DNA of 61,662 nucleotides, filler included, from Hausera hauseri (lineage: Eukaryota): NCBI GenBank assembly GCA_046269625.1. It is 12 parts of 12 records of this genome, joined end to end, with 100 filler letters (N's around TTAATTAATTAA, not from the genome) between each part and the next. Parts side by side here need not be neighbours in the genome. Positions count along the whole stretch, not along the records: positions 12,818 to 17,048 come from JBJURY010687216.1; 11 more parts are not named here. One strand, 5' to 3'. Position numbers and translations under genes: made by a program. Position 1 is the stretch's first letter, and each line of letters starts with the position of its first letter. This document shows, in pieces, positions 110-42,299 of this stretch. The notes under the pieces were generated by a model. It ran no database searches, was not told the origin of the DNA, and saw nothing but the letters and a program-made list of their open reading frames with translations.

Positions 110-2300
110 TAACCTTTTTAATTGAACCAATTCAGTGTTAGAAAGTGAAATTAAAAATGGAAAAAAAGTTGCAAATTGTGAATATATTATTAAGATGCTT
201 CAGTCGAATGTTTCACCGACTTTCTTAGACGATAACCCCGTGAAAATTCTTAATCTTTTGGATGAATGTAATGCTTTCGCATTTGAAAAAGCTTTATAAA
301 TGATATTATGTAATGTTAAATTATCAATTGCTGGAGTGAAGAATTTAAAGTCTGAAATAAAGGCGTTCATTGAAAATTGTTTTAAATCGTCCAGAGGATC
401 TTCAAGAAATTTATAGTGAAATTCTGCTAATATTTGCAGATAAATATCTCGCCGAAGTTGTTGACATTTTAGTTTCGTATTCAACGAATAATAAACCGAC
501 TATTGCTAATGGCGCTATTGAAACTTTGAAATTGTTCAGAAATTTAAAAATTTAACTATTAAAACAATTGCCACTGTTATTCCGACAATTCTTGAATCAA
601 GAGACAAACAAACTCGAGATATTGCAAAACGATTAGCCATTGAAATTAGGATGTTTCATGGTTATCAGAAAATAGGCTCGTTTCTAAAAGATTTAAAACC
701 TATACAGTTAAACGAAATTAAGACAGAATCGGAAAATCGTTTGACAAACCAACAGACGAAAGCTGCTGAAATCAATGATAGTAATCAAAATTATAATGAT
801 GGTGATGATGACATTGATCCCGTGGATTTTTTGAAGTTATTACCGAAATTAACAGACGAATTTTTCAAAAAATTAAATGGTTCCAGAAAAGACCGAAGAG
901 GCGTTGGAAGAAGTGGAAAATTTCGTCAAGGGACGACGACTCGTTCCTGGGAATTAAGGAGAATTTGTGAAGAGACTCCGTTACATTATCAACAAAGATT
1001 CCCAAATTAATTCGATTGTTCTTTCCCTGGAAATTCTGTGCAGTTTAGCTCTTGGATTGGGAAAAAGTTTTGCACCATTCACGGCATCTGTTTTCGAATG
1101 TTGTCTGGAAAAGTTCCGAGAGAAAAAAGCCCAGGTTTGAATACAAATCGAAAGTGCAACGATTTAGCCTTTAATCACTTCAATATTGACAATTTAATAA
1201 CGATCGTGTCGGAATCGCTAAAAACGAAAAATCCAACCATTCGATCGGAGTTGGCTCAGTTTTTAGTGCGTGTTTTAAAAGCCTCAAAAAGGAAATCGGC
1301 AGGTCAAAAGTTCGTTAAAAGTGTTATACCGTTGGCGAAGAACCTTTGCGGTGATGGCGATAAAGACGGCCGTGAACTGACGTTTCAGTTGATGGCGTGT
1401 TTCATCGAATTTGTCGGTAAGAAACCGATAATGGCATTTTTGGATTCCGTGGACAATTCGAAAATCCAACGAATCCAGTCGTTTTTGCCCGCAGCAAAGC
1501 CGGAAGCTACGTGTATTGTGATTAAGCAGGTGAATGTGACTGAACAGAAAGTTGCACCACAGAAGATCGAGAAAGTAAGGCCGGTAATAAAATCGACACC
1601 GTAGCACGTAAAATCCGTTCAAACCTGTCCACAGAATGATACCATGGACGAAAACTTTTGTGATGAGTTGCAGAGGGGTTTGTCCAGTAATCTTTGGAAA
1701 GATCGGCTGGCATCTATTGACCGACTAATGAGCTATTGTATGAAGATGACCATTAACAAAGCAATTCTACAATCAGCAATACGAGTCGTACTGACTAAAC
1801 CGAGCCTTAAAGATAGTAATACGGTCGTTGTGAAAAAAAAATTGGACCTGTTGCGATATCTGTTCGAGCAGTCCAATGGTCGAATATCGACAATTGTTGC
1901 CGATCCATGTGTCGTGGAATTGGTTGAAAAGGTCGGTTATGCAAAGATGTGAAGTTGCGCTCGAGAAGTATTCGATCTGCTGTTGCAGAAGTCTGTTGAT
2001 GAAAGTTTTTTGTAATGCGATCATTACACATGTGTGGTGAAAGTAAATCAGTTCGATCTTTGACCGAGACTCTGGATTGTATTAGTGTAGCGCAAAAGGA
2101 CGAGGAATTATATTTTCGAAAGAAGTCATTCCGATAATCAAGTTATTGCTGTCTTCGCCGAATCAAATGATAAAACAAAAAGCTATTTGCCTGATAGGGG
2201 CCATTTACAAAACAGCTGGTCATGATTTTCTAAGATATTTTGACACTGAAAAGGCTGGAACTATTGACTCGATTGAAAAAAAGTAATGAAAATTGATAAA
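110..2300 (+). pseudogene. CKAP5: XMAP215/ch-TOG family microtubule polymerase, TOG1 to about TOG3, disrupted; boundaries approximate
   Basis: Stitched frames read IPTILESRDKQTRDIAKRLAIEI (TOG1 end), DIDPVDFLKLLPK...EALEEVENF...LALGLGKSFAPF...LEKFREKK (TOG2), SLKTKNPTIRSE, DGDKDGRE and LSSNLWKDRLASI (TOG3 start). Several frameshifts and in-frame stops; no introns evident. Confidence 0.85.
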
Positions 2301-5438: not shown

Positions 5439-5584
5439 GGGCTTGCGCCATTGTAAATAAATTGAATGGGTGTCACATTTGATATCCTGAAATAAATATT
5501 TTCTACGTTGGAATTATCATAAATAATATCATTCAATTTAACTTTGGTTATTGTCAACTTGGTAACCCCATTCTTGGTCATCAA

Positions 5585-5700
5585 TTCATTTTCAAAGAGG
5601 CAAATCGGGACCCGCCTATGTGTCCGACTCGCCGGCAGCGGAAAACCCAGCCGTGCCCAACCGAAAGGGTCGGAGGGTAATAGTTGGCGCTAACATTACA
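5585..5700 (-). repeat. Start of the 3' LTR of the Gypsy copy at 5701-10895 (diverged member of the TGTGG terminus family)
   Basis: Minus strand reads gccacgggttga|TGTAATG...GGTTGGGCACGGCTGGG...GTCGGACACATAGGCGGGTCCCGAT, similar to the termini at 22716, 26932 and 52672. It lies directly after the integrase 3' UTR. Confidence 0.7.
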
Positions 5701-8700
5701 TCAACCCGTGGCAAAGTTAGAACTATAAAGGATAAAAGAAAGAGAAAAGAACGCAAAACGAAAAGTGTGTGTGTGTTAGCTGAGCTTAGTGTGTATAAGG
5801 CGTTGAATACCTTTGATTGATTTTTCCCTACTATATTGGCTGAATGTGACTCTGTGTGTTGTGTGTTTGTGCATTGCTTATTTGCAGAGATTGAGGTTGG
5901 GGGAAAATATTTGTAGATTTTGGTGTAGGTGTTGTGTCGTGCCTAGATTAAGAAGAAAATGAAGAAGATGAAGAAGGATGTGAAGAAAGAAGAGTGATTC
6001 TTAACGAAGGATGGTTAAAGGTATTGGAAAGAGTGCTAGAAGACGAAGGACTGATGGAAGGTGTAGTGGTGGATAAAGGAAGAAAAGAAAAAGTTGGAGT
6101 AGAGATGGGAATTGTGTTAAGTGAAAGAGTGGAGGAGGAAGATAATATAGAAGGAGTAGTAGCGATAGGAAGAGTGGTAGGGATAAAAGAAGAAAGTATA
6201 GAAAATGATGAAGCAAGACTAAGCGCAGAAGAGGGAAGTGGAAGTGGTATAGTAATAGATGTAGGGATAGCAAGGAGTGGAGGAGTAAGAAAAGAAGTTA
6301 GCGTATCAGGCGGTAAGGTGTCGTCGACAAAGAAAGCTGGCTTTAGGTTGGTAATGTGTACTGTGAAGTCTTTACCGTCTTGGGAGATGATGGCGTTATG
6401 CGAGAGAAGCTGTATCAGTTTATAGGGCCCCAGGTAGCGAGGCTGGAAACCGCAAGGAGCCTGATTCTTCAGCCATACAAATTTAGCCGCATACAAATCT
6501 TCAGGTAGGTATGTTTTATCTTTGTGAAGTATCCTGCAGAATGAGTCTTTACTGACTTCGACGAAGTGATTTTGCGCCGCCCCTATCGTCTCATCCATGA
6601 GAGTGTCATCTAGGGCGGTTAGTTCAAATAATGAGCGAACAGGAGCTCTGAATAAGGCTTCAATAGGTGAGCATCCTGTTGAAGTGGACGGAGTGTTCCG
6701 CCAGCCGAGCAGAACTAAAGGAAGAAGATTGGTCCAACTACTGTTGGCCTCTGCAAGAATACTTAGTGCCGTTTTCAATGTTCGGTAGAAACGTTCTAGA
6801 AGGCCATTCGATTGGGGATGATAATGTGTAGTATGGATGTGGTGGATCCCCAATCGGTTAACAAGGGATTTGAACAGGTTGGATTCAACCTGTGGACTCT
6901 GGTCAATGATAATGAAGCAAGTGATCCAAACTTGCTAATCCATGTGCGGATGAAAACGTTAGCTATGGTGTCGGTGTTTCTGCTCCGCAGAGGGATGGCT
7001 TCTGGCCATCGCGAGGAACGGTCCATCATGGTGAGGGTGAATTGACGACTGTTGTCTGAAGGAAGAGGGCTAACGATGTCGATATACATGGACTCGAAAC
7101 GCGATGTGCAGGGAAAGTGGAATAGTGGTGGCTTTATATGTTTAGTTGTTTTGTATTTTGGCATGCCACACACTCCTTAACCTATGCCTGCACATCAGAA
7201 CGCATTGACGGCCATATTACTTGTCGATGGAGGCGACGAAAAGTTGCTTTAGCACCATGATGGTGTAATGAAAGCACGTGGTGAAATGCTTGCTTTGCAA
7301 TGAAGGTGCTAGAATTATTACTGAATGGCCAGGTTTGGAGGTGTCTAAAGCCACGCCATCAACGATTATGCAAGATTTAAAAGACTTAAGCATGTCTTGA
7401 GGTAGATGGTTCTGTTGAAGTTGTTCCTGCGTAAAAGTAGGAAAAAAACTAATCGAACTAACCGACCTAGATAAAAAATCTGCAACTAAATTGTTAACTC
7501 CGTTGATATGTTTAATATCGAAGTTAAATGTTGACAAGTATGATATTTGCCGTTCTTGGCGTGTGGAAGGGTGTTTCGTGGCCATGATGTTAAGTAAGGG
7601 TTTGTGATCGGTTTGTAGAGTGAAATGACAAGCGACAAGTAGATGTGAGAAGTGCTTTAAAATGAGAACTATGGCCAATAGTTCGCGATCGAATGTGGAA
7701 TAGCTGGTTTCAGGTGCGGTTAATTTGCGAGAGAAAAATTCTAATGGCTGGTTTTCTCCCTTGTAGATTTAGTGGAGTACAGCGCCTACATCAGTGGTTG
7801 AAGCGAATGTAGTGCAAAGGAGTTCTGCATCAGGCTAAGGAAGAGCAAGAATATGTACAGTTTTGATGCCTTCGCGTAGCTTGTCGAATTTGTCAACCAA
7901 ATCAGGTGTTTACTGGATTGGTTGATGTTTTTTGCCTCCATTTAGGTGTGCGAATGGTGCTGTCAATTCCGATCAATATAGTACATATTTATGTACAAAG
8001 TGGAGTGTGCCGAGGAAGCTACGCAACAGGATGTTCTTAAGAGCTTCAACTCGGTCGGATTGGGGAGAATGACCGTCTGGTGTGATAAAGTGGCCGAAAA
8101 AGTTAATACACTTTTTGAAAAATTGGAATTTGTCAAAATTGATTTGTAGATTATGATGGTTAAGACGTTGGAATATTGCACGAAGATGTTCCTCGTGTTG
8201 TTCGGTCGAAGATGAGACGACTAGAATATTGTCGATATAATGGTGTGCAAACGAGAAATCTGCAAGAACTGAATCAATGTGGCGCTGAAAAGTTTGTGCG
8301 ACATTCCGCGACCGAATGGCATAAATAGATATTCATAGAGGCCAAAAGGTGTAGTTACTGCGGTTTTTTAATGTCTTCAGGTGATACTGGTATTTAATGG
8401 TATGCTTTAGCTAGATCAATGATGGAATAAATGGTGTTGAATTAAGGTGATGCAAGATGTCCTTGATGAGTGGTAAAGGATATGCGTCCATGATGGTCAG
8501 ATTGTTTATCTGTCGGTAGTCACCGCATGGTCTAAAAGTACCATCCTTTTTTGTACCACGTGTAACGGTGATGACCAAGGCGATTTAAAACGGCGTATGA
8601 TGCAAGAACGTTCTAGCTCACAAAATTGGACTTCTACGGCCTGTCTACGGCGAGGCGACAGAAGCCGTACTTTTTGTCGTATTAGACGTTGGTGCTGTGT

Positions 8701-10895
8701 GACTATATGGTGTAAAATGTAGTTGGCGAGAGTAAAAATACAATATTTTTTAAGTACGCGTGGGCATAATGTGTTGATGAATTGTTGTAACGTCGCAGTT
8801 AGCTGTGAGAGATTTGATGAAAGTGATGAAACGGTTTGAGTGGTAGCGGATACAATGTGTGAGTTATTAGGTGATGTGCAGTCAAGTGGTATTCGGTGCA
8901 AGGCTGTTGAGTTGAAAATGGTGTTGGCTGAGGTATTTTCGTCGAGTGAGGTAGCGATGGTGGCAGTGCCACAATTATCGACATTAAACCTCGATCGAAT
9001 GCCAGTATTAGTATTTAAAATTTACGGATAGAATAATCGTTATAAAATATCAAATTATTCGCAGACTTTTTTAAGATAAGCTTCCGCATTCCGGTCGACT
9101 GCGCGGTAGTCCAAATGCTATTTACATGCTCAGAAATGCGGCCAGTGGTGCCGTTCCTGAGACATTGTTGGCTGCAGTCAACTAGTAGATTATAATGTGA
9201 AAGAAAATCAGATCCTAGAATTGCCGACTGGACGTTAGCGTCTGTAAACGTCCAGTAGAAGGACGAAAGAAAATTCGGCACAGTGAAAGATAATGTAGTC
9301 GTATCAGAAATGTGCAGCAGTTGGCCTGAAGCAGTATATAAAGGCTTAAGTTTGAATAAAGAATTTTGTGTACGAAAGGTTTGCGGTTATAAAGAAATCG
9401 TTGGACCTGTGTCAATAAGAAAGCCGACAGATTGCGTAGTAGGAGCAGCGATTGCAGCCTTTAAAGTGAAAACAGCAAAGGAGACATGTCAGCGTTCAGA
9501 ATGTGAAGGAGTGCCTTTTCCACAGTTTGCCGTAACTTCTGTCGGCGAACTTAGTTTTTTTGAAAAGGTGAATTATGACGACTATTACAAGGAAAGGCAG
9601 TACGTCCGTCATTTGTGTTGGATTTGAAAGTGCAGCCTGAAAGACATTTACAAGCTTGAGTTTTGAACCTTGCATGGTACATGCAGACAACGGTGTCCAA
9701 GGAAAACTTTTGATTTAAAACTTGCATCCAAGGCAGCACTTCTAAGCATTAGTGTTAAATCTGCTGTGGTCATAGCAGATTGACGCACGCATGGGCGATG
9801 GTGAGCGGTTTCTTGACGTAAAACAGGCGCGGTCAGCGGCAAAACCCCCTCGTCGGGACAAAGACAATTCATTTAATTTATTGTTGATGTTGTTGATAGT
9901 TGCCTGCAATGTCATATTTTCAGCACGTATCTGATTAAGCTGCTGTTCTGTAGACGAGTTAGTTGTTTGAATGTTGTTCGCGGCAACTGCTGCTAACACT
10001 ACTGGTTGAGAATTTATGTGTAGGACATCATATATCCTATCGGCCAATTCGGCCAATTTATCAAGCGGCGTGGAGTCTCCCACCACAGTAAGAAGGGTCC
10101 AGATGTGGATAGGTAGGGCGTTCAGAAAATAATGGAGTCGAAGATCAGGGTTATGCTCCTTAGTGACGCCAAGAGTACGCAAGTGTGCTAATGAGGTGCG
10201 TAAGAAGTCACTGGAATGTTGTGTGCCCAGTGCATTTTCGTTAATGAAATGCTGCATTATGGAGTCGACTGAAGGTTCGGTCTGTTTTACGACAGCGTCA
10301 AATAATTGGGTATAAGGGTCAGAATGTTGGAAGATGTCTAGCAAGTTATGTATGGAGGCTTTTATGGAGTTTGGGAGAAGATAGAGTAAGATGTGGGCTT
10401 TAGATAAGGAGTCTGTGATACCATTAGACTGTAGCCAGAGTTGATGAAAGTGAATCCACGTTTTACTGGACTTTTTATTATCTATAAAGTATTCAGTGCA
10501 GTGTGGAGTATTGGTAGGATTTTTATGGGGATTTGCATCGACTGAAGAAAGTAGAGGGTTTGGTTTGAAGTAAGAGAGAATGGGTATTGGCTTTTTGTGG
10601 TGGTTGTATCCGTGGTGTCAATAGTTGGTGGGGAGTTCATTCCACCACGGATACGGAAATGTATACTGAAGTAAGCGTGATTTGAAAAAGGAGGTAAAGT
10701 CTTGTTGAGATGTATGATGGTACCGTGATTGCTAAGATAGAAGTCAGAAGAACCAAGGATAGAAGAAAGGTGGGTCTGAAGGATGGGGATATACGGGTGT
10801 GATGTATGAAGGGTATATATGTGAATGTTATTATAAAAGAAGAGAATGGAGGTAACGGCAGTGGTGGGCCCGGGGGCGTGATTTAAGGCCGACAT
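5701..10895 (-). mobile_element. Ty3/Gypsy LTR retrotransposon internal region (UBL-gag, PR, RT, RNase H, IN), degenerate
   Basis: Gag (HYFLNALP...LDKLAELADRIY, two C-x2-H knuckles); protease (IDTG near 9410, SAILGSDFL); RT ([17 protein letters not shown]); RNase H (YSTFDRELLA, TDHKPL, NLVADFLSR); integrase (DIVSPLP, SRWPEAIPL, YHPQSNGLLERF). PR-RT-RH-IN order. Many stops and frameshifts. Confidence 0.95.
10641..10895 (-). CDS. Ubiquitin-like N-terminal domain of Gag (85 aa, ends RIRGG)
   Basis: MSAL...SILFFYNNIHIYTL...DFYLSNHGTII...YFSIHFRIRGG|MNSPP. C-terminus resembles ubiquitin LRLRGG. Equivalent domains occur in three other copies. Confidence 0.75.
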
Positions 10896-10999
10896 CGAAG
10901 GCGCAGGGTTTGCGGTCGGAACCTCCGCCTTGAGGTGGCGGGCAGAAAAATGCTGGTGGGCGGAATTTCCCTTCAGAAATTTAGCATAGACTGTTGATA

Positions 11000-11330
11000 T
11001 GACATTCAATAAGAACAAATTACTAACGCCATACGGTCGTGGGGATATCGATTTGAGAATCTTCTGCTGCTGCAAAAAGAAATCGTCCTGATTACCAATA
11101 CTGATGGTCGTTGAAGTGGATGGTATTGATGACACAATTGGTGCACCGATTTGTTGACCGGCACCAAACCCACCGAATGTCGACGATGTCTGTGCACCGA
11201 ATCCGTAGCATGTTGTTGATGAATAGTCGAATAATTCTGGTTTATTCGTCGCATTGCCGAATAAGTTCAATGTGGTATCAAGCGTTATATGTTGTGGCTT
11301 CTGTTGGTTAACAAACAAACTACCTTGTTG
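11000..11330 (-). pseudogene. NUP98: Nup98-like FG-nucleoporin fragment
   Basis: GSLF, NLFGNATNKP, GFGAQTSSTFGGFGAGQQ followed by LQQQKILKSISPRPYGVSNLF, which resembles the Nup98 post-FG motif LQQ...SPFGDSPLF. Confidence 0.65.
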
Positions 11331-11519
11331 AGGAAACACTCTGACACTCTGTGTCGTTGCTGGAGTCACACCAAAGCTGCTATGTGCAGGAAAAACGCTT
11401 GGCTTCGATGTGACTAATTTTTTATCTTCGTCGATTTTCACGGTCCACTTTGAAATGTGCGAATTTAAATCACTGATGAGCAGATGCTGACTGCTAAATA
11501 TGGAGTCGAACTACTACTA

Positions 11520-12266
11520 CTATATTGACGAACTACTCGCACTATTGTTGGTGCTACTAATGAGAGTGGGAAACATAGATGTAACTGGCACATGTGAATT
11601 GGAATGTTCGTTGCTAGAGGAGTGGCAGTTAGATGGTAGTCTACCAGGACCGGTGACAATGTGACGTTTTGAAAGCATTTCACTTGCAACTTTAGAAATA
11701 GTTTTGTAAATACATGACAGTTGGTGTTTGTCGTATAGTAAATTCTTTCGTTGTGACCACATTTTTATGAGAATGTTTTGAAAGTCAGGAAATACTCCAA
11801 CGATTTCCATTTGAACTAAGGCGGCAGTGAGCAAAATCAATACTTCGCAAACAGAGGAACCGTTTATGCGTGAAATAGCAATTGGTTTTGTCATACTCCT
11901 TTGCGGACGATAATAGCCGCATAATTCAGTAGCAAATGATAGAAAATCTTTATTGGATTTCTGAAGTTTATTTTCGTCATTGTTTACTTGAAAATGCCGT
12001 ACACTCTTTGACTGCTTAGTTTTTATGTTTCGCACAAAGTTGCTGTCTCGATGTTCCAACAATAATTCCAACAAAAACAATTTATAATTCTTTTCTTTTC
12101 CAACATCGTTTTGAATTACATCTGCTAGATGAAATCCAGATTTCAAAGTAGCAATTTTTGGATCTAATCTGTACGACTTTGGTTGCAAGCTCGGATAACA
12201 TACAATGATTTTTCTTACGTCAACTCGACCTTTCTCCAACAATATTTTAATTTCCTTGAATTCCAT
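11520..12266 (-). CDS. Hypothetical protein fragment (248 aa)
   Basis: ATG-initiated ORF with no recognised domain. Confidence 0.3.
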   Translation of the reverse strand: MEFKEIKILLEKGRVDVRKIIVCYPSLQPKSYRLDPKIATLKSGFHLADVIQNDVGKEKNYKLFLLELLLEHRDSNFVRNIKTKQSKSVRHFQVNNDENKLQKSNKDFLSFATELCGYYRPQRSMTKPIAISRINGSSVCEVLILLTAALVQMEIVGVFPDFQNILIKMWSQRKNLLYDKHQLSCIYKTISKVASEMLSKRHIVTGPGRLPSNCHSSSNEHSNSHVPVTSMFPTLISSTNNSASSSSI

Positions 12267-12817
12267 TTTCGCAAATCTTTAAAAAGCAGCAACGCCAAAT
12301 AATTTCCAACATTTTTCTTACAAATACTTATACATCTGTATTCTAATTTCAAAGTCAACATCTAATGAATAAATATGATAATATTCCTGATCAGTTAATA
12401 GTACGATTTTCTTTAAGCGTCTTTTTATAAGTCTTATTAGCCATTCTTTTAAACGATTCTTAACATCATATTTGGTTCTTATTTTCTGGCTCTTTGGATT
12501 TATAAAATTTTTTGAATTTTGATGAGGTACGTATTATGTTAATGTCTTCATCAAGTAATCTTTTTGATTCGAGATCAATTACGTTTTCAAATTCACCTTG
12601 GTCATTTAAGTCAGATGTATGGCTGACAGTATCTTTTGCCATTTCATGAATAATCGAGGATAAACAATCTGTAACAATATCATATTCGATTGAGTTTATG
12701 AAGCTCTTTTCGATACTNNNNNNNNNNNNNNNNNNNNNNNNNNNNNNNNNNNNNNNNNNNNTTAATTAATTAANNNNNNNNNNNNNNNNNNNNNNNNNNN
12801 NNNNNNNNNNNNNNNNN

Positions 12818-14420
12818 TTCCGGATTACTCAACTAGTCAGTCGGGTTCCAACATCCCATTTAGCTTGGTATCGAGTATCATCTACTACGGAGGCCATGAC
12901 ACGATTTAATTCATGTGTTCATTGTTGTGGAAAAGCAAAAAATTGCCTAAATGCTTCAATTTTCTTTGGTCTATATATACCTTTCGATGAGGTATCTTGA
13001 AACTTATCATCTGTTATTCCTTTTACTAGGTTAGTCCCTGTCAGCTTAATTGGAGTTGCAGTAATGCCTCCATTTGGCAAACTTACCCAATCTGTTTCAC
13101 TTCGTCTGAACATAGGTTCCCCTAAATTTGCGTTAAAATATTTAAAGATTGTTGGCTGCGTCACCCTGGTAAGTAGCATAGCCAATCGAGGGATATTTTG
13201 GTATATAACTGGAGGTTCTTGTATGCATCGTTTTCTTCTACATTGATTGACACATCTTTTCTCTCACATTCGTAAGTCAACAAGACTTTGCCAGTAACTC
13301 GACCGAAAATTCCTTCTCTCGTAGGAATTATTGGTGATGCTAACTCAGGGTTAGCATAAATGAGAGCCAATTTTGTTCTCATAATCTCCATATCCAATTT
13401 ACAATCGTTTGTTACCATCTCGTGGTATAGTTCGGCTATTCCAACTTGTCCTTTATGATAGAATTAGTCATCTCGATTCTTCAAGTAATCTTCAATACGA
13501 ATATCCTGCATCTCTAATTTGTAAATCTTCGCGCTTATCTTCGTGTCTGCGACGAAAAATTAGTGGCAAACATTACTACTTCGCAAAGGGAGATCATTTC
13601 TTTCTTAATAAACTTAAATCCATGAGGTCGGAAATTAATATAGTCGTCGTAGAGTGTTCAGCTACGTCTTCGCGCGTTTTTGATTTACTGTCGGACTTAT
13701 CCACATATCGCTTTCAGGTTGTTTCATTAAATTTCAATTCTGTGATTTTAATGAAATTACAATTCTTTCCCGCAGGAGGTTCCCATATTATAACCAAACT
13801 TCTGAAGGCACATGTTACATCTTGTAAATGACATCTTTGATTTTCTGTATATAGTTTAGTGACGCTATGAAACATAACTTTCTGTACTCGCAATTCCGAT
13901 TCGTAGAAGTCCACGACCACTACGTTCGATTCCAATCCTTTCCCGGTGTCGTACTCTGCTTCATTACAGTTCCCATTATGCATATTTTATCTTCCAGCCA
14001 CTATATGTTCTAATAATCTTTCCTGATTGCATTTCCAGTTCCATACTATCCCATTTTACTCTTCCTGTTTCTCTCGCTTGTTTACAATGTTGACGTTCTA
14101 GGCTCATTGGAATTAAGGGAGTTGTCGGCTTGATTATCAACGAATGTCCGTGTATCAATCCACAATAGAAAATGCTATGTGATCGCCGTAATATACATTT
14201 TATTCCATCCAGTGAGATTAGTTCTTGTTGTTGGTACAGGAAATAACATTTCCCTATTGTTTCCAATTTGTGCGGTCTAGCGTCTTCACATGCCTCTAAG
14301 TCCATTAAGGAATATTTCTGACCAATCTTAAATCTATCGCAATCGTATACGGCAACTGCTCCCATTTGTTTCACCAACACCATTAGAGTTAAAAAATTGA
14401 TCAACCAGCTCGATTCATTG
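12818..14420 (-). pseudogene. Chuvirus-like (Jingchuvirales-type) envelope glycoprotein, disrupted and truncated by the contig end
   Basis: Hydrophobic signal-like segment, then AVYDC...YSLMDLEAC...CILRRSHSIFYCGLIHGHS...C; WEPPAGKNC; CKLDMEIMRTKLALIYANPE...GKVLLTYEC; KGIYRPKKIEAFRQFFAFP. The Cys spacing and the YDC, YCG-x2-H, GIY and FP motifs match the chuvirus G family as I recall it. Confidence 0.75.
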
Positions 14421-17048
14421 CTTCTATTCGGGGTTGTTGCGGATAAATTTCGTATAACATCCTCAAACCTGTCGCTACTACTTGTAAGCAGTCTATTGCC
14501 ATCTTTTTTATCAAATATTTTTGCCCAGCTTATCTCACTGGGCAGCTTCCTAGCTGCTTTCCTAGCTGAGCTAATTGCCCTATTAAATTCATTATCCCGT
14601 GATAGATTTGTTTTTATTGCTAAATATAACAATATTTTCCTTAGTTCTTCCACTGCATTTTCCACCGTAATTTTCTCAATTAGTGTTTCGTCGGACAAGG
14701 TACTTTTAGACATTTTAAATCGAAAAGTTTTCATCATTCTCGCTGCCTCATATATTGCTTTTTCTTTAGGATCTAGTATATCGCCTTGAAGTCCAGTATA
14801 GTTTACTATTCGTATTAAGTCTTTCATCAGTTCGGTTAACTCTTCATTATCCGAACTTGGTGTCCGTATTGGCATTTTTCTTAACTCCCTAATAAGATTG
14901 GTATTATGATCTATTTCTTCACGTATTCTCCTCGGTCTTCTGACCGGTCGTTTGTGATTCGGAGGCATTGTCTTACTTATTAACATTAAATTTTTGTCGT
15001 ATTGTTCTTGGTCTACATCCGTCTGCAAATATTCAAAATATAAGGCAGCGTCTCGAATTCCCATGACTCGTCCAACACAATGTTCCGTTTAGCTATTCTC
15101 ATGGCTTCATCTTTAGTCTGCTCATTAGTAATTACGGCTATTATTCGATTTGTTTCGTCCGGTATAATCCCTGCATCTATCAAGAATTCCGGTTCGTCTA
15201 ATATTCTACCCCTAAAATATAATCGATAATTTACTTCGCTTCTCTCACTATTATCTATCCACCACTGTTTTATATCCTTAACCGTCGTTGATGTCGTACA
15301 TTGACATTCCTTTTCTTCCATTCCCTCAGATGATATTTTTACTTTATTTTTACTTCGAGCTCTTTCTCGAATTTCTTTCAATCGTGGTTGTATTTCTTTC
15401 ATTTGGTTGGTTCTAAAATTAACCCCATTTCCGCAAGCATGTTGTATCATTTTCATCAGTTCAAATAGCTCGTCCGATTGAATCAGCCTCTTTTCTTGAT
15501 AGCCGGTTAACTCTAATTGCGTCTCTTTGCCACCTTCGTGCGCATTCCAGTTGATTGTCCAGCTCGTATTCGGCGAAAACGTATTTATCTCAAACTTTTT
15601 AATTCTCTAACCAGCTCATTCAGCTCCGTTGCTCTTGACTTCGTACATATTCGAGATTCTTCGATATGTCGTAGTCTAGCAATTAGCTGTCTCATCTTCT
15701 GGTCGTTGATTTCTGCCATTTCTACTACTAATAATATTAGCTTGTGCACCTCTTCCAGGATTTTGGAGTTCGGGCGGATTTCATCGATTAATATATTTAT
15801 GAATTTGGCTTCCTCGGAAGAGAGTTGATGGTCACTTCTTATCTCGGTCAGTTCTGCATGCCAATTTTGGTCAGATCCTTGCATTCATTCATGTGGGTTA
15901 TGTAAAAAATTCAGTATTCCACTTAATGAAACTCTGTAGTCGGCACAGATGTCCAATTTTTCTATTTCCTGTATGGTAATTTCGTTTATAGGCTTTTCCG
16001 TCAATTGTTTGATTCCTTCCAATCGAATGTTTTTTAATCTGGGAAAAATATTACATGCCATGTCTCGTTTTAACTGAAAATCCGTCTCTTCGATCACTTT
16101 ATATATGTCTTTCAGTATCGTCAGTTCCTGATTTCGGCTCATAAATTTTAGCTGTCTCATCGAATTCAATTGAGTTCAAATCTCAATTTCGATTTGCATG
16201 ATTTCGACATTTCGTAAAATTTCTTCCAACTGCTGCTTTATTATTGGTTCGTTCCTTGAAAATTCCTTTAAGCGGTGATCTGTTACCCTAACCAACCTTG
16301 TTAACAATCTTGACCATTCTCTCAGTTGATTGTCTATTGCCGCTTTTGCATATATTGCCTCGTCTAACATCTTATAGCCATCCTTTAGCTTGTGATCGGA
16401 GCCTTTTATATAATCCATTATTTGTTTAATGTAATGGAATTCACTTTTATATTCGTCAAATTCTAAGTGGCAAGCTTTTATCACATTCTGCGTCTCCTCG
16501 TTGTCTATATGGACTATTACATTTTTCAATCTACCAGTTTCTGACCGTTTTTCATTTTCTACTTTTATGCGAACTTCTATATTCGCGTGTAATTTTGGTG
16601 CGGTAAACGCGATTTTGAACATCTCCATTAATTTAGGAACATCTGTTGGGTCTACGCACAATAGTCTTAATTGATTCTCGTCTCGTTCGTTCATTGGTTT
16701 TTGTTTAATATAGGATGTCATTACTTCTCCTATGTCGATCATCAGTCTATTTAAATTCTGTTTTGCTCGCTTGAGCTTTGAGTCTGTCTCTAACGTTTTT
16801 AATAACTTCTGAGCTTGCACCATCTTAGCTTCTATCTTTTCTTCATTCTGGCCATATATCTTCGACAGTTTAATTCCACTTTTTATCCAAGAGTTTAGTG
16901 TTTGTTTCCATTTTTCTAATAGTTCTTGTGGTGTCTCTTCTGATTCGTGCGAATCGCTTTGCTTTTTTGGTCTTCTTTTACTTAATTCCTTGTACATTCG
17001 TTCCGCGAACTGCTGTTCCTTGCCCGAGATGTCTATTTGCTCGGTTAT
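14421..17048 (-). pseudogene. Long N-terminal part of the same env-like polyprotein (helical/coiled-coil region plus an internal ubiquitin-like domain)
   Basis: ORFs 16176-16997, 15885-16169 and 15585-15884 are in one frame, separated by single TGA codons. Frameshifts then link to 15013-15456 and 13976-15064, and the latter runs directly into G. Confidence 0.6.
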
Positions 17049-24180: not shown

Positions 24181-24392
24181 AAAAGATAGTAACATATTTA
24201 CGGATATTGCCAATATTGCTGTGAAATTAAGTTCGGCAACAAATTGTAATTTTGTTTAAATATTCAATGAAGAATTTAGCGACTTTTGAAATTGAATTTT
24301 TAATTCGCCATTTTTTTGCTAAACGATTTACACGAATTTTGAAGGATATTAAATAGAGTTTTGATTGTTATTTGTTCTTTAAATGTTAGACT

Positions 24393-25143
24393 ATGGCCAA
24401 CAATAACAATAATAGTCTTAATGCATGCTTGCTCGTTTCATGTCCCAGTTGCCAATTGGAGATGTATTTTTGCCGGTTTGTTTCTTATTGTGAAAACGAC
24501 TGTATCTCGGATTATATTTACCGTATAATTAAATATTTCTGTTGTAACGCAGTTTTGAGTCGTCACATCATTCGATATCATTCGAAGAGTGAATGTTTAA
24601 TGCGGTTGAAATACAAATGTATATGTGGAGATCAAAAGCCAAACGACGACGATTGTAACGAATTTCAATTTGTTAATTGTCACAATCATTGTCTATCATG
24701 TTTGCAAAGAACATGCGATTATAACAATTGTACCATTGTGTCTTGTGACAATAATTGTGGTGCTGTTATGCACAAATGCAAATTGGACGATCATGTACAG
24801 TACATATGTGGAAAATCTCTCGTTATGTCTAAATTTTGCCTATGGCTGCAAGAAGTTAATTTTCCGGGACTCGATGTCTAAACATGTGGAGAAATGTGCA
24901 GGCAGCATTGTTATTTGTACACGGAAATGTGGTCGACACATGAACGGTAACAAAATTTACGATTCATCGTTGGACTGTTCGTCGTTTTTCGGAAATTGGA
25001 AAATGAATTTACTCAATGAACTGAAAATAAAGGCGAACCACGTTGTTTGTTTGCGTTACGGGGATGCACTTGCATTGAGTGATCAGTTGCGTTTATTTGA
25101 AGAATCTCAACGGGTTTGCGATGCTGATGTGTCAAACTATTGA
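24393..25143 (+). pseudogene. FBXO30/FBXO40-like TRAF-type zinc-finger N-terminus, frameshifted
   Basis: HNHCLSC...C...CGAVMHKCKLDDH...C...CLNFAYGC...MSKHVEKCAGSIVICT...DALALSDQLRLFE follows the FBXO30/40 N-terminal pattern. Confidence 0.8.
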
Positions 25144-26931
25144 TACGACTCTAACGTAATTAATGAAATTAAAATGGTTTCAAAAATGCAAAGACTTTTT
25201 CACAAAGGTAATATTCATAATATTCATAATAACATTCATAAAACGGAAACGGTATTTGGTGTTTACGAATTCGTAAGAAGAACCATTACTCGGTATTACT
25301 TTGCCAATACTCGACATGGGTGTATGAATTTGGATTCACCGAATTTCGATCCCGATGCAACAGTTGATGAAAAAACTGAATCGGCCTTTGAGGGATTCAT
25401 GTTCGGGGAATTTTTTCCACTTTCTACGAGAAGCCACCCGTTGCCGACAAGCGAAATTCGTTGACTGGGAATATTAGTTGCATCACAGATTATGAACAAA
25501 ATATGATTTATAAAGAGGGTGATTATCCATATCAGTTATTTTGGTGTGCGACAAGACAACATCAAACTAATGGCTTGATTTTTGGTGGATTTTATTCGAA
25601 GACTGTGACAAATCCTTTGACAAATTCACAGTCTTTTCTGGAAGGGTTCACGTCTAACCATTTTATTGATTCCATTTACTTTGTCTCTCGCCTGATCAGG
25701 GTCTGGCTTTAAAGGTGCCCCATTTTAGTGGATTATACACCAATGTCTTTGGTAATCCTTTGGCTGTGTCGAAATCCCTAGCAGATCACAAACAATACCC
25801 CGAAACATGCCCAATTTGATATACTAGTGTTTATATGTCTGCTGATAAAACCGTAATGCAGATGTTTGCTAAAATTATGTATGACCCGTGGGACATTGAT
25901 TTAAAGCTTAGTNNNNNNNNNNNNNNNNNNNNNNNNNNNNNNNNNNNNNNNNNNNNTTAATTAATTAANNNNNNNNNNNNNNNNNNNNNNNNNNNNNNNN
26001 NNNNNNNNNNNNGACAAAATTCGTCAGGAACCACAATGTATGTCATGCCCGTCAAACAAGAACTCAGGTTCACTGATTGGTCAAAAACAAACAGTCCGAC
26101 ATATGTAGTATATGCCGATATGGGTACTGTCTTACCACGGCATCATATATATGACCAAAAACATGTTCAAATCGCCATCGGTATGTTAGTTGTCTTAGTA
26201 AAAGCTGCAGGTCAACCTCAATATTATGCTTCCCACGGAAGGAATTGTGTACGCGATTTCATGCAGCAGTTTCAAACCCTAGTGGGAACTGAAATCGCAC
26301 CCTGGTACATTAGAAATAGCAATAAACTCTTGATGTGTACAAACAAAGATGAACGCCTGACGTTTGCAGTCACAGAGGAATATTACCTGTGCCACAAAAT
26401 GTTAACTTTTGACGCATTGGAACAACTCCTACCGGATCACGATCGTTTTGCGGATCGATATCTCGGAGCAGCATGTAATTTATGCAATTTGGCGAGGCCT
26501 GTGCGGCTATTCTTATTGGTGGTATTTCATAACTTCAGGGGTTATGATTGGCACCATATTTTGAAATGGGCAATAAACGGATTTCCGCACTGGGAACTAT
26601 CCATAATTCCGACTACGATGGAAAAATACCTGTCACTGCCTGTTTGTGTAAACCAGTTCTAGGTACGCTTCCTCGATTCATTGCAATTTCTCAACGAATC
26701 ATTGGCAAAGCTGGTAAATGCCTTGTCAGACTTGCCGATAGCACTGACACAGTTACCCGCATATATCGCACACAGAAAATACATATTTCCATATTACTTT
26801 GCAACATCGTATGAGCGACCCCGGACAGCACAGGAATTACCACCGTGATGGACAGGTATCTAAAAGGATGAAAACCGGAAAGCACAGAGGTGTTGGACAG
26901 AACTCGACGGTAGAAATATGTTGATTTCATG

Positions 26932-28365
26932 TGTGGTGCCCACAGCGGCCCGTGCCCTTTGGCCCATTTGGTCGGACACAGTCGGGCTTTCGCTACCTTC
27001 GCGTCGGGCCCATAGGCGGGCCCCCGATCTTCCGCCTTGAAAGAATTCAAAAATTACGACAAAATGGCCCAACATTCGTGTTCGGATTTCATCTGCAGAC
27101 GTAATAGTATATTCTGTGTTTACGAATCGAACATCAACGTAGCAAACAGTAAGAAGTTGCGTGTTCAATCTCAACGTACAACCAGTCCACCGCCGAGTAC
27201 CTTTTATTCAGTGTTTGAAAAGAATTCCTCATCGTCTTTTGTAGCCGTTCAGCATTCGAAATCGGTACCTATGCAATTATCGTTTCCCCAACAAAATATT
27301 AATAAATGCAAGCCATCGAATTTGGATGTTGTTGCAACACCGAAACGAGGTACTCGTAAGAAGGGTATATTGAACTGTTTAGTTTTCAGAAACCGATCTC
27401 ATTCCCATTCGAAATCAATCGAAGACAATTTCCTACTGCAGCAAAACAAAAAGCTTTTCCCGATCAGTTAAAGCAGATGATTATAAAAATCTCTCTGATC
27501 GAAGCTTGACTCTTCCAAATCTCAAATCCAGTGAAATCGACTTATCAGTTCAAATAAAAAATTCTCAACTTCTTAGTATAGACTTAATAAAAGATTATTT
27601 AAATCAATCAGATTATACACTGTCTTCCTCCGTTCATGGTAGACCACTTAACAAGTCTATTCAAAATACTCAAAATCAGTTTTGCATATCAGCTCAAAAT
27701 TTCCCGCTTTCGATATCAAACTGTTACTCGAACAGAATAACGAGCAGCAGAAAACAATGTAGAATCTATTGTGTCGCGCTTAATTCAAAATGCCGGATTC
27801 GTTGACCCTTATGTGTGTCATTTGTTGTGGTGCTTTTGTACATAAAAAAGAAATTTTTGTTTTAAAAAGAAAAAACAATATACGATTTGTTTTGATAATA
27901 AAAAAATTTGCACACTATTGAATTTATATTGATGATTTTCTTTCGCCATTTTTTGAAATTTTATTCTGGTCAATTCTGATATTGATATTTTGCAACAGTC
28001 GGTTATTGAGTAGATGTTGAATCTGGTTAATGATGCAGTTGATGAATTTTTTCCAATTGATAGCAAATTTCTGTGAGGAGTGCTCGTTATGCGATGCTGC
28101 CGATCGAGTTTACTACATGATGGAAATGTTCTGAATACGTTTGGATGCATTTTGGTTTTTCGCCTGCGATATTTGTCTTACGGTGTCATCTGGCATGTTA
28201 ACAATGGGAATTATTCCGTATTGATTTGCTGCAATGCCGATGCATCTCTCGTTATGCCACTGTTCGTTGTTTGCAAAGCGGAAAATCTGCTTGCATCATG
28301 GTGTCAGGATGATCAAACTGGTACTCAATATTCCATCAGTCCGATGGATTTGTTGACTTATAACA
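26932..28365 (+). mobile_element. Insertion beginning with the Gypsy LTR terminus (solo-LTR-like unit with cargo)
   Basis: Starts TGTGGTGCCCACAGCGGCC. PolB reading stops at ...TTC ATG (26931) and resumes CTC CAG TAT GTT AAA CTG GAT (28368), matching M|LYYLKLD in the other PolB copy. Imperfect target duplication CATG/CATA. Confidence 0.8.
28205..28360 (+). pseudogene. pogo/Tigger-like DDE_1 transposase fragment inside the insertion
   Basis: YSVLICCNADASLVMPLFVVCKAENLLASWCQDDQTGTQYSISP resembles the DDE_1 segment TVLxCCNAxG...P.VVYKGKNLxxSW...GTxY. Confidence 0.6.
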
Positions 28366-30187
28366 TACTCCAGTATGTTAAACTGGATGCGTACTTATTA
28401 GCTAATGAGTTCCAAGCATTTTGAATAAAAGTGTTGACTGAAGATAGGCTGTAGTCGCTCAACTTTTATCCCATACCGGGATTGAGTTGGGCATCAGCTC
28501 TAATGTCATTGTATCGAGACATTGAGCTGCTGCAAGACCCGAAAATGTACCGACTTTTTTGATCTTGGTATTTGATGCGGCATGACATTTGTCAACAAGC
28601 ATCCGGTCAGTGCTACCAATACCAGATCACTGCTGTATATTTATATTAATAACCTGTACGGTTTGGCGCTTTTGTAAACCTTGCCGTATGGTTAATTCGA
28701 ATAGGTTGTCGACAGACAAGATCTGGACGACATAATGGTAAATCTGCGACGAGCAGACATGGCGGGCTCAGTCGGATACATGATGATGGTCGATCTCCTG
28801 GTACCAGATGAGCTGCATGACGTTTTGCACGATTTACCGGTCACACCATTTAACCAATATCCAGAAACTTCTCATGACGCATGAAGCGAAGCTGAATTAC
28901 ATGGTCCATTTGCGTGTGTTACAGTTCTACATGCAGCTCAGTGTTCGCGTCATACAGCTGCATCGTGCAAGCCGATTTGTTCAGGCTCCCATATTCAAGG
29001 CGTACATAGATGGAAATTAGGAGAAACGAGCCGCAGCTTGTACAAAGTTCGAAAAGGACTACCACAAGCTGAAAAATAATTCTCTGTACGGAAAAACAGT
29101 GGAGAATCTGGAAATGCGGCTCAATGTACACCTATGCAATAGCGAAAAGCGGTTGGTCACGTACACAAGTAAGGCGCAATTTCGTCGATCAATGCATATA
29201 GCCGATGGATTGGTTGCGGTGCTGTTAAACAGAGAAGAAGTCGTTCCGGACCAGCCAAGTTACATCGGACAAGTGGTATTGGACCTGAGCAAGTTGCGTA
29301 TGTATGAGCTACAGTATCGCGACTTGGCACGTTGCCGGCAAATGTTTGACGGCTGTGACACTAGTATAATGCCGGTGACATACAGTTCTTTTCTGCGGCT
29401 GAAAAAAGTCAATCGCAAACAGCTACTGTAGCTAATGCAGTCAGGTGGATTACTGAACACGTCCAACTACCCAGCGGTTCACCCGTTGTACAGCAGCGCG
29501 ATTACCAACAAAATCGGCTGCTTCAAGGATGAAAGTGAAGGCAGGATTTAGTATCGGGAATGGATATTCCTACGCCAAAAGTGTTACAGTCTTCTGACGG
29601 ACTGTGGACCGAAAATGCGGGCAAAAGTAGTCCAGCTGAGACAAACGAAAATTGACCACGGTGATTATCGCCGTATACATGAAGAAGCGGCAGAAGGAGG
29701 ACAAACAGTGGCTGTTGTGTCTGAAATGATTATCAAATTAAATGAACGCCAGCTGTACACAATAACTAGTGCAAAAGTCCCTTTTTCATGTAACGATGAT
29801 AAGCGAAAGTGGATGGGGCGAAATAAGAGTTGGGCGTACGGACATTAGTAGCTGAAATAACCGCACGTCCAAACAATGGGTGCTCTGTCGGTTCAGACAA
29901 ATCGGTTCAGTTCAGTTACTGTGACAATCACTGACAATTATGCGATGTATATTGTGTTTTTATATTTCAATAACGTATTTTGTTCAGTGTCTTGTGTTTT
30001 GTTTTCGGTTACTTACTTAGCCTGTTATTTTTAAGTAAGATAGAAGTAAAAGTAATACAATAACCTTTCACGAGTAAACAAAATATGNNNNNNNNNNNNN
30101 NNNNNNNNNNNNNNNNNNNNNNNNNNNNNNNTTAATTAATTAANNNNNNNNNNNNNNNNNNNNNNNNNNNNNNNNNNNNNNNNNNNN

Positions 30188-34901: not shown

Positions 34902-34922
34902 TGTGGTGCCGAGGACTCGGGC
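34902..34922 (+). repeat. LTR 5' terminus, second variant (TGTGGTGCCGAGGACTCGGGC)
   Basis: Directly after the PPT; 20/21 identical to 51805-51825, after which the two copies are unrelated. Confidence 0.75.
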
Positions 34923-35049
34923 GCCATCACAGCAAGTGTATACTAGTAATCACACAAACAATCAGATTCATGTTAAATCTTCCACAAATCAGAACAGCGA
35001 TGAAGAAACCTCAAAAGCCATAGGTCGAAATTATTTTCGTCAAAAGAAA

Positions 35050-35400
35050 CGAATGGCGATCGAGAAATTTGAAGATACTGACGAAAAGCCCTGTCAAATT
35101 TGTTTAGGTACTAATTTACCTGAAATGATTCTTTTATGTGATTCGTGTGATTTGGGTCATCATGCAATGTGTTTGAAGCCATCGTTGATGAATATTTCAG
35201 AGAGAAATTGGTATTGTCTCAAATTCCAAAATAAAAATTGCTCATATCTTGACCAAAAAAAATTATTGTCGAAATCGAACAGTGTCAGATTAAAATTGCA
35301 GCAAAAATTCGAATGCAAGAAAGATTAAATTTTGTGAATATATCTATGTCGAATATTTTGTCGAGTACTCGAACAAGAAAATCGCACAAGAAGTACGGCA
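35050..35400 (+). pseudogene. RSF1: RSF1-like PHD-finger fragment
   Basis: DEKPCQICLGTNLPEMILLCDSCDLGHHAMCLKPSLMNISERNWYC and downstream ERLNFVNISMSNIL resemble the RSF1 PHD finger and its following motif. Confidence 0.72.
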
Positions 35401-41050: not shown

Positions 41051-41572
41051 GTAATCCCACTTCTGACACCAATGTGGTATAATAACTCCAACGAGAGGAA
41101 GATAAATCCAAATGGCAAGCAATTTACTTTACTATCACAATTCAAAATTCAACAAATCAATTTCTTTTATTTATTTTCTATTTACAGAGCAATAATTTTA
41201 TTACAAACGATATTACAAATGCAACTGTCCATATTCTGACACTGTTTGTTAAAGGAGAACATTGCAAAAATGTGAAATGACGTAGATTTTGATTTGAGAT
41301 GGATTGCACTGCTTNNNNNNNNNNNNNNNNNNNNNNNNNNNNNNNNNNNNNNNNNNNNTTAATTAATTAANNNNNNNNNNNNNNNNNNNNNNNNNNNNNN
41401 NNNNNNNNNNNNNNACCATAGAAGTAGTGTTTATTTTAATTTAAAGTATTAATAGGTTAATATATATTGCATTTTACGCTTACTTTAATTTATTTCTTAT
41501 TCATAATGCAAACATTATCCCGTGTATTGCGTATCACGCATACACGTAGATCATGAGCAGTGCCATTAGCAG

Positions 41573-42076: not shown

Positions 42077-42299
42077 CAGTAGAAGGAGAAACAGCATCAA
42101 CAAGAAGAACAGGAGGCCAATATTCTCAACATTACAGTCAAGTACGACCTAAACAGATCGTACGTAAACATGAAGGTGGACATGACAACGAAAACAGCAA
42201 CGCAGTTGAAGGATGTACCCGCTCATGTGCGTAACCGGTTGGAAATAGAGGTGGCCAAATTCCAATAACACCACTACAAAGTGCAATATTATGCACTTG

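What the first reader, a model, noticed from the sequence alone, without database searches (positions are those of the whole stretch)
12818..17048. Very long env-like polyprotein: helical region, internal ubiquitin-like domain, then chuvirus-type glycoprotein
Seen: about 4.2 kb of same-strand coding sequence broken by isolated TGA codons and frameshifts. Region 15348-15127 reads KVKISSEGMEEKECQCTTSTTVKDIKQWW...YRLYFRGRILDEPEFLIDAGIIPDETNRIIAV, which follows the ubiquitin fold pattern but has no GG. A signal-like segment then precedes YDC of the glycoprotein. Established: chuvirus-type G genes have been captured as env by LTR retrotransposons (e.g. BEL/Pao elements in insects). Inference: a putative endogenous enveloped element with a very large cytoplasmic leader, and a second, independent UBL in a mobile element here. 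The parent element is not visible on this contig.
Basis: partly seen in the sequence, partly recalled or inferred. Interest (0 to 1): 0.7.

Follow-up and report, generated by a model that had tools for sequence, protein, structure and literature searches.

The report
Decayed Burro-like enveloped retrotransposon fragment
This is a broken piece of a repeated animal jumping element with a ubiquitin-like domain in front of a viral-type fusion glycoprotein; it likely comes from a retrovirus-like gypsy element that puts capsid, envelope and enzymes in one long protein, a layout already published for planarian Burro elements, so it is ordinary apart from an unexplained helical stretch.

Summary
Contig 12818-17048 is one minus-strand coding run: only 4 breaks in the 2.7-kb leader, against about 36 in shuffles. 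It contains a true ubiquitin fold at 15348-15127, a hydrophobic segment, and a PF24664 fusion glycoprotein cut off by the contig end.

The closest glycoprotein relatives I annotated are not chuviral or BEL/Pao-like. Nine of 14 carry retroelement domains in the order Gag-Env-protease-RT-RNase H-integrase. The same helix-hairpin + UBL module lies before Env in 7 of 10 relatives long enough to judge. Six relatives carry a Bcl-2-like domain just before Env.

Gag...UBL/SUMO-Bcl2-in-frame Env-Pol is described for planarian Burro elements (PMC6431247), and gB-type GAG-ENV-POL errantiviruses in PMC13524379. So the 'leader' is most likely the cargo region between Gag and Env, and the UBL is inherited, not a fresh capture.

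This copy is decayed, in a family with many diverged copies. Gag and pol are off the contig. No Bcl-2 was detected here, and about 750 helical residues stay unassigned. New member of a known kind.

The parts
16179..17048 (-). Helical, charged leader piece 1 (290 aa, open at the contig edge); no family, no CCHC knuckle; ends at a TGA (16178-16176)
   Evidence: no Pfam or PDB match when read by reference with X at the stops
15888..16175 (-). Leader piece 2 (96 aa), same frame; ends at a TGA (15887-15885)
15588..15884 (-). Leader piece 3 (99 aa), same frame; the frame changes in its overlap with the next piece (15606-15588)
   Evidence: only weak likeness to the helical region before the UBL of P0008 (E 0.077)
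15361..15477 (-). Helix hairpin directly before the UBL, shared with relatives
   Evidence: model helices 3-17 and 21-41; covered by the relatives-only profile
15127..15348 (-). Internal ubiquitin-like (beta-grasp) domain without C-terminal GG
   Evidence: Pfam E 0.0036; profile vs PDB 19 of 20 hits ubiquitin/UBL; AlphaFold pLDDT 80 and Foldseek ubiquilin/ubiquitin E 1.3e-4; family variants favour third codon positions, 12 of 18
14405..15088 (-). Helical spacer (about 228 aa) in the place where relatives carry a Bcl-2-like domain; Bcl-2 likeness not detected here; the frame changes in the overlap 15088-15016
   Evidence: negative for Bcl-2
14354..14404 (-). Hydrophobic internal signal or anchor segment before YDC (14347)
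   Evidence: highest Kyte-Doolittle 17-mer of the 8 pieces, 1.69; a like segment precedes YDC in relatives
12818..14349 (-). Ectodomain of a PF24664 (chuvirus/HSV-gB-type) fusion glycoprotein, broken by several stops and frame changes, cut by the contig end before the membrane anchor
   Evidence: PF24664 profile 7-126, 300-394, 392-506 of 653; 4 pieces align in order to intact relatives

Best explanation
This contig is a decayed, repeated stretch holding a ubiquitin-like domain, a hydrophobic segment and a gB/chuvirus-type fusion glycoprotein, and is likely the middle of a Burro-like Ty3/gypsy retrotransposon whose intact form would make one Gag-cargo-Env-Pol polyprotein. Shown here: the order helical region, helix hairpin + UBL, helical spacer, hydrophobic segment, glycoprotein; many diverged copies; decay of this copy; and the same UBL and glycoprotein in natural relatives that have gag in front and protease-RT-RNase H-integrase behind, in one frame. 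Inferred: everything before the hydrophobic segment stays in the cytosol. The segment acts as an internal signal that threads the ectodomain into the ER, a second anchor (off contig) returns Pol to the cytosol, and signal peptidase plus the element's proteases cut the chain, so that capsid, fusogen and enzymes are made together for enveloped particles. The UBL has no GG, so it is likely not conjugated or cut off by host deubiquitinases. It most likely works as an integral docking or degradation module for host ubiquitin-system receptors, beside the Bcl-2-like death inhibitor found in relatives (untested; about 50%). This copy itself is most likely non-functional.
For: G relatives: 27 hits among 1.84 billion proteins, all through the G start. 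Of the 14 scanned (of 27; the rest are 92-358 aa), all 14 match PF24664, 8 have retropepsins after G, 4 have RT, RNase H and integrase, 3 have a Pfam zinc knuckle before G, and none shows an RdRp, nucleoprotein, Polinton or BEL/Pao-specific family. The best hit P0001 reads capsid (dArc2 capsid E 0.007), CCHC, UBL, Bcl-2-like, G. Loci fetched through G alone carry the UBL as held-out positives: L001 E 1e-19, L002 E 2e-10. L002 is one frame of 3426 aa with UBL, Bcl-2-like, Env, proteases, RT, RH, IN. UBL-to-YDC distance is 333 aa here and 164-473 aa in 7 relatives. Family variants sit at third positions of the UBL frame (12 of 18, p 0.004) and of the downstream frame inside the overlap (3 of 3, p 0.04), while the best-supported differences between this copy and the other contigs, almost all in the G part, show no such bias (9 of 35). 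3742 contigs of X1 lie on the stretch, 3482 of them under 95% alike. Literature: PMC6431247 section 7; PMC13524379.
Against: No gag, knuckle, pol or LTR is on this contig, and no genome is held, so the link to pol rests on relatives at 26-38% identity. No intact copy of this family was seen. The Bcl-2-like domain was not detected in this copy. At least 567 aa lie before the UBL with no knuckle, against 199-335 aa from knuckle to UBL in 4 relatives, and the first 487 aa match no family, structure or fetched relative convincingly. L001 has a stop between its Bcl-2-like domain and the Env signal, so one frame is not universal. Three of 10 long relatives lack the UBL (P0010, P0015, P0023). Five of the 7 UBLs were first picked by eye. 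The G tree did not resolve the window's place.
Confidence: 0.78

Rival explanations
1. It is the same kind of gypsy element, but the helical + UBL part is one or more separate accessory genes, and Env starts on its own inside the overlap after the UBL.
For: A methionine codon lies early in the 15088-13979 piece (residue 9). L001 has a stop just before its Env signal. PMC6431247 says Burro cargo can be either an accessory ORF or part of the polyprotein. Whether other copies share the three upstream breaks was not settled: cover there is thin or only this copy.
Against: UBL and G are in one frame in 6 of the 7 UBL-bearing relatives (P0001, P0005, P0008, P0020, P0021, L002). The selected frame switches within about 90 bases after the UBL. 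One contig of another copy differs in length inside that overlap, which fits a lesion private to this copy but does not prove it.
Confidence: 0.14
2. It is an endogenised chuvirus gene block, or a BEL/Pao (Anakin-type) element that captured a chuvirus glycoprotein.
For: PF24664 is named after chuvirus-class fusion proteins. Such captures are known in mosquitoes (PMC7642597, passages).
Against: None of the 14 scanned relatives has viral N/L or BEL/Pao-specific families; their marks are Ty3/Arc capsid, gypsy-type RNase H and H2C2 integrase. No relative was found in the viral contigs. The UBL module is shared with pol-bearing relatives.
Confidence: 0.04
3. It is part of a Maverick/Polinton DNA transposon carrying a gB-like fusogen and UBL-bearing cargo, as in nematodes.
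For: Nematode Mavericks carry a gB-like fusogen and cargo with N-terminal UBLs (bioRxiv 2022.07.12.499685, passages). Polinton-type polymerase B lies on another contig of this window.
Against: There the fusogen has its own N-terminal signal peptide and the UBLs head proteases or kinases. Here both G and the UBL match gypsy-type polyproteins, and the contig shares no DNA or protein likeness with the other window contigs.
Confidence: 0.03

Closest known systems
Burro / GYPSM1 giant gypsy elements of planarians (PMC6431247, section 7 read whole; Grohme 2018 and Jurka 2007 known only through it)
   Same: One polyprotein with cargo between Gag and an in-frame Env, including a Ubi2/SUMO-like domain (PF11976; the window's UBL hits the same family at E 0.0085) ahead of BCL2 and Env; many copies; decayed fragments with stops and frameshifts are described in D. 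japonica.
   Different: No MATH, BIR, ankyrin or BCL2 domain was detected in this copy (Pfam scans; Bcl-2 profile). That paper likens the Burro Env to gypsy Env and mononegavirus fusion proteins, not explicitly to gB. No Burro sequence was compared, and the host here was not identified.
GAG-ENV-POL errantiviruses with HSV/gB-type ENV of Nematoda, Bryozoa and Platyhelminthes (Chary and Hayashi, PMC13524379)
   Same: gB/chuvirus-type Env placed between gag and pol in Ty3/gypsy elements; an ectodomain flanked by a signal peptide and an anchor, or by two membrane segments; multi-copy families.
   Different: The main text has 0 occurrences of ubiquitin, SUMO, Bcl or Burro, so the cargo is not described there. 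Gag and pol cannot be seen on this contig.
Anakin BEL/Pao elements of mosquitoes (PMC7642597, passages)
   Same: Chuvirus-type glycoprotein used as env by an LTR retrotransposon.
   Different: BEL/Pao backbone; the relatives here have gypsy-type domains with Env before pol.
Nematode Mavericks with MFUS-1 and UBL-headed cargo (bioRxiv 2022.07.12.499685, passages)
   Same: A mobile element joining a gB-like fusogen and UBL domains.
   Different: DNA transposon, separate genes, UBL at the N-terminus of enzymes.

Membership tests
GAG-ENV-POL gB-type Ty3/gypsy errantivirus | Env of the HSV-gB/chuvirus type (PF24664) | tested here: met
   Three pieces match in order, profile 7-506 of 653, best E 1.4e-10; the class III fold itself was not modelled
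GAG-ENV-POL gB-type Ty3/gypsy errantivirus | Gag (capsid + CCHC) upstream of Env | tested here: inconclusive
   No knuckle or capsid match on the contig, which is open at that end; present in relatives P0001, P0005, P0023, L001
GAG-ENV-POL gB-type Ty3/gypsy errantivirus | Protease-RT-RNase H-integrase downstream of Env | not testable with these tools
   Contig ends inside the ectodomain and no genome is held; present in P0002, P0008, P0015, P0023 and L002
GAG-ENV-POL gB-type Ty3/gypsy errantivirus | LTRs, primer-binding site, target-site duplication | not testable with these tools
   Both element ends are off the contig; no LTR pair in L001 or L002 either, both incomplete
GAG-ENV-POL gB-type Ty3/gypsy errantivirus | Multi-copy dispersed family | tested here: met
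   3742 contigs of one run lie on the stretch, 3482 under 95% alike; depth is no copy number
Burro-like elements | Ubiquitin/SUMO-like domain between Gag and Env | tested here: met
   UBL 333 aa before YDC; Gag side inferred
Burro-like elements | BCL2-like domain between UBL and Env | tested here: not met
   Profiles of 4 and 6 relatives and hhalign do not find it in the 15088-14400 piece; met in 6 relatives. A strongly diverged fold is not excluded; this piece was not modelled
Burro-like elements | Env in frame with the upstream polyprotein | tested here: inconclusive
   The 228-aa spacer is in frame with G; UBL to spacer is broken by a frame change in this copy
Burro-like elements | Giant size and RT phylogeny with Burro | not testable with these tools
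   No pol on the contig and no Burro sequence at hand; filed as Burro-like in layout, not as a Burro
BEL/Pao Anakin elements | BEL/Pao gag-pol domains linked to the glycoprotein | tested here: inconclusive
   Own flanks unseen; 0 of 14 scanned relatives show BEL/Pao-specific families
Chuvirus endogenous viral element | Chuviral N or L sequence beside G | tested here: not met
   2.7 kb upstream of G matches no viral N or L family and holds a module shared with pol-bearing retroelements
Conjugatable ubiquitin-like modifier | C-terminal GG after the last strand | tested here: not met
   Absent in the window and directly after the last strand in all 7 relatives; P0021 has a GG some eight residues later (alignments)

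The most novel reading that the evidence does not exclude
A helix-hairpin + GG-less UBL module, often followed by a Bcl-2-like domain, is an ancestral and widespread host-control cassette of Gag-Env-Pol gypsy viruses well beyond planarian Burro. This family has swapped the Bcl-2 slot for an unknown helical domain and added over 500 residues of unknown helical cargo, which would be new viral accessory folds.
Probability: 0.3. Interest if true: 0.45.

Novelty: new member of a known kind. Interest (0 to 1): 0.22.

Why it matters
Modestly. It extends a layout published for planarian Burro elements (UBL and Bcl-2-like cargo before an in-frame Env) to a set of unannotated relatives, and shows that the UBL frame varies mainly at third codon positions across this family, as expected under purifying selection. 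That makes the proposal in PMC6431247, that these elements meddle with host ubiquitin and apoptosis systems, easier to test on small isolated domains. The copy in this window is broken and adds no mechanism of its own.

Tried and rejected
Own-genome searches: no genome held. Word-index homolog searches with the 370-aa piece found nothing among 3600 longer and 2354 similar-length candidates; P0001 residues 400-780 found only itself among 5098; these searches are insensitive. Viral contigs gave no relative. ESM Atlas: the UBL piece gave only leads under 0.9 (CLU_N, Rad60-SLD, ubiquitin); the 370-aa piece gave no usable hit. The single-sequence fold of the UBL piece was uninformative (pLDDT 37.6). 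The wide VIA-align search had not finished when last asked and was not collected. Bcl-2 in the window's copy: not found; a by-eye likeness of two helices was rejected for lack of a score. G-start tree: 28 rows, 2 left out as too short; the P0005 row was cut at the wrong motif by my script and the bootstrap had not settled; the window fell in no starred set, so the tree is not used. No RNA holder listed. The other gypsy pol pieces in the window are only 25-49% alike to the relatives' pol in local stretches and cannot be tied to this element. Host taxon was not determined. Literature searches: 'Jingchuvirales + glycoprotein + ubiquitin' gave 0 papers; at least 4 of 'Burro, LTR, BCL2, SUMO, env' since 2018 gave 4 papers, of which only PMC6431247 is relevant; searches listed nothing else on UBLs in such elements, judged from listings only. 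Subscription papers, Repbase reports, figures and unread supplements were not seen and may describe more.
Full report
OBSERVATION. The window is a chain of small contigs joined by N spacers, and the finding is one whole contig, 12818-17048. On the minus strand it reads as eight main pieces. The 2.7 kb before the glycoprotein can be crossed with 4 breaks: two isolated TGA codons (16178-16176 and 15887-15885) and two frame changes (in the overlaps 15606-15588 and 15088-15016). Two hundred mononucleotide shuffles need 36 on average and never fewer than 27; the opposite strand needs 19. The glycoprotein part needs 8 breaks against 19.8 in shuffles. PF24664 matches three pieces in order and covers profile positions 7-506 of 653, so the membrane anchor is beyond the contig end. 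The most hydrophobic 17 residues of the eight pieces lie at 14404-14354, just before YDC. Contigs of run X1 repeat 14029-15829, 15801-17019 and 13427-13829 letter for letter. X1 may be the source of this assembly, so this argues against a chimeric join but is not independent support.

THE UBL IS REAL. Alone it scores Pfam ubiquitin E 0.0036 and Rad60-SLD E 0.0085, both below the curated cut-offs, and weakly hits ubiquitin and Mdy2 in the PDB. A profile of the window piece and 5 relatives gives 20 PDB hits, 19 of them ubiquitin, ubiquilin, Dsk2 or ISG15. AlphaFold on that alignment gives pLDDT 80, two helices followed by a beta-grasp at exactly 15348-15127. All 45 listed Foldseek rows are entries with ubiquitin, UBL, ISG15 or SUMO by title, best E 1.3e-4. 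There is no GG.

A MANY-COPY FAMILY, THIS COPY DECAYED. 3742 contigs of X1 lie on the stretch at 80% or more: 42 at 99% or more, 218 at 95-99%, 1130 at 90-95% and 2352 under 90%. Depth is high over G and around the UBL and low upstream of about 15800; it is not a copy number. Among places that vary between copies, 12 of 18 in the UBL fall on third codon positions of the UBL frame (p 0.004), and 3 of 3 in the overlap behind it fall on third positions of the downstream frame (p 0.04). The best-supported places where this copy differs from nearly all other depth show no bias (9 of 35 assigned, from the 40 of 495 rows shown). This fits selection on the family and neutral decay of this copy. One contig of another copy differs in length inside the UBL-spacer overlap. 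Cover at the three upstream breaks is thin, so whether they are private is not settled.

WHAT THE RELATIVES SHOW. phmmer of the 370-aa piece over 1.84 billion representatives gave 27 hits, all through the G start. I scanned 14 of the 27 (the longer ones) with Pfam: all match PF24664; 8 have retropepsins after G; 4 have RT, RNase H and H2C2/rve integrase after G; 3 have a zinc knuckle before G; none has an RdRp, nucleoprotein, Polinton or BEL/Pao-specific family. The best hit, P0001 (E 5e-21), begins with a capsid like dArc2 (E 0.007) and a knuckle, has a weak ubiquitin match at 473-522, and reaches G at about 793. By eye I found a similar helix + UBL stretch in P0001, P0005, P0008, P0020 and P0021. 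A profile of these five, without the window, finds the window's UBL piece at E 7e-5, the next of 281 window ORFs at 0.14. Loci fetched through a conserved G stretch alone served as held-out tests: L001 scores E 1e-19 and L002 E 2e-10, and the 7-sequence profile then finds the window at E 7e-9. L001 reads gag, knuckle, UBL (Pfam E 5e-5 on the piece), Bcl-2-like, one stop, Env. L002 is one frame of 3426 aa with UBL, Bcl-2-like, Env, proteases, RT, RNase H and integrase, followed by an exonuclease ORF. Of 10 relatives with 230 aa or more before YDC, 7 have the UBL and 3 (P0010, P0015, P0023) do not; P0022, whose front matches a mitochondrial ribosomal protein, was left out. UBL and G are in one frame in 6 of the 7. 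The UBL-to-YDC distance is 333 aa here and 164-473 aa in them.

BCL-2. Four relatives picked by their GGW motif (P0001, P0003, P0007, P0021) give a profile whose PDB hits are Bcl-xL or Bak in 55 of 56 cases (best E 0.003); P0003 hits Pfam Bcl-2 at E 0.001; L001 and L002 are held-out positives. The window's spacer in the same position does not score. This is a result against full identity with the Burro layout. The first 487 aa match no Pfam family, PDB chain or fetched relative convincingly, and at least 567 aa precede the UBL with no knuckle, longer than the 199-335 aa in four relatives.

MECHANISM. Shown: domain order, repetition, decay, and homology of both the UBL module and G to single-frame Gag-Env-Pol relatives. 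Inferred from general knowledge of membrane-protein biogenesis and retroelements: the part before the hydrophobic segment is cytosolic; the segment is an internal signal; a later anchor returns Pol to the cytosol; host signal peptidase and the element's proteases release the products; the class III-type fusogen would make particles infectious. Without GG the UBL is likely an integral domain. I favour a docking or degradation role toward host ubiquitin-system receptors (about 50%, untested); its best profile matches are ubiquilin-type UBLs, which is only a hint.

KNOWN SYSTEMS. Arkhipova and Yushenova (PMC6431247; section 7 read whole; other passages) describe planarian Burro/GYPSM1 elements as one polyprotein with Gag and CCHC knuckles, Smc and MATH motifs, a Ubi2/SUMO-like domain (PF11976), BCL2, Env in frame between gag and pol, then PR and RT, and note decayed fragments in D. 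japonica. Chary and Hayashi (PMC13524379; abstract, first parts of sections 5 and 6, word-found passages, part 1 of 34 and searched rows of supplement 1) report GAG-ENV-POL Ty3/gypsy elements with gB-type Env in nematodes, bryozoans and flatworms, and do not mention ubiquitin, SUMO, Bcl or Burro in the main text; five other supplements, the checklist and all figures were not read. Anakin BEL/Pao elements (PMC7642597, passages), nematode Mavericks (bioRxiv 2022.07.12.499685, passages) and bdelloid ORF3s (PMC5408684, passages) are more distant parallels. I read the first of five parts of PMC10084718 and PMC12440569 for background. Grohme 2018 and Jurka 2007 were not read. Three earlier notes of this scan reach similar readings on other genomes; I saw them after reaching this conclusion, and they are not independent evidence.

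VERDICT. It works like a Burro-type enveloped gypsy element and is most likely a decayed member of the GAG-ENV-POL gB-type errantiviruses (0.78 as one polyprotein, 0.14 with separate accessory ORFs). It is not filed as a Burro: BCL2 was tested and not met, and size, LTRs and RT could not be tested. What remains new is small: the wide sharing of the helix-hairpin + UBL module among unannotated relatives, and about 750 unassigned helical residues in this family. Novelty: new member of a known kind; interest 0.22.

Noticed in passing
L002 10617-12104 (+): A separate ORF after the polyprotein matches RNase_T (DEDDh exonuclease, E 1.4e-5). P0015 and P0021 seem by eye to carry exonuclease-like cargo before Env. 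DEDDy ORF3s are described in bdelloid LTR elements (PMC5408684, passages).
   Followed up: partly
L002 2-10279; P0002, P0004, P0005, P0007: Several retropepsin-like stretches follow Env (2-4 Pfam stretches in L002, P0002, P0004, P0005). By eye, L002, P0002 and P0008 have further hydrophobic segments between or after the pol domains, perhaps a second membrane protein.
   Followed up: no
L001 3058-3060: A single stop separates the gag-UBL-Bcl-2-like frame from the Env signal in an otherwise open element: decay or programmed read-through.
   Followed up: no
P0008 (HBK71150.1): A Gag-UBL-Env-Pol polyprotein labelled as a hypothetical protein of a Flavobacteriaceae MAG; probably animal DNA in a bacterial bin.
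   Followed up: no
window 15363-15402: A short stretch of the helix hairpin is covered by far more contigs than its neighbours; 63 contigs break off at 15363 and 25 at 15402, so subfamilies diverge sharply on both sides of it.
   Followed up: partly
window 41415-46966 and 26013-30087: Two contigs about 75-80% alike over several stretches hold Polinton-type DNA polymerase B pieces (PF03175 E 1e-10 at 43785-44486); a RING finger ORF lies at 46463-46852.
   Followed up: no
window 5439-12717, 30188-36266, 51547-57041: Decayed gypsy RT/RNase H/integrase pieces, with a DUF7041-type gag at 9745-10617; no env seen there.
   Followed up: partly
window 522-1601, 11523-12278, 24390-25140, 47228-47932, 54778-55170: Strongly diverged host genes (XMAP215 TOG, tyrosine phosphatase, TRAF zinc fingers, RasGEF_N, CLU_N) suggest a fast-evolving animal; taxon not determined.
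   Followed up: no
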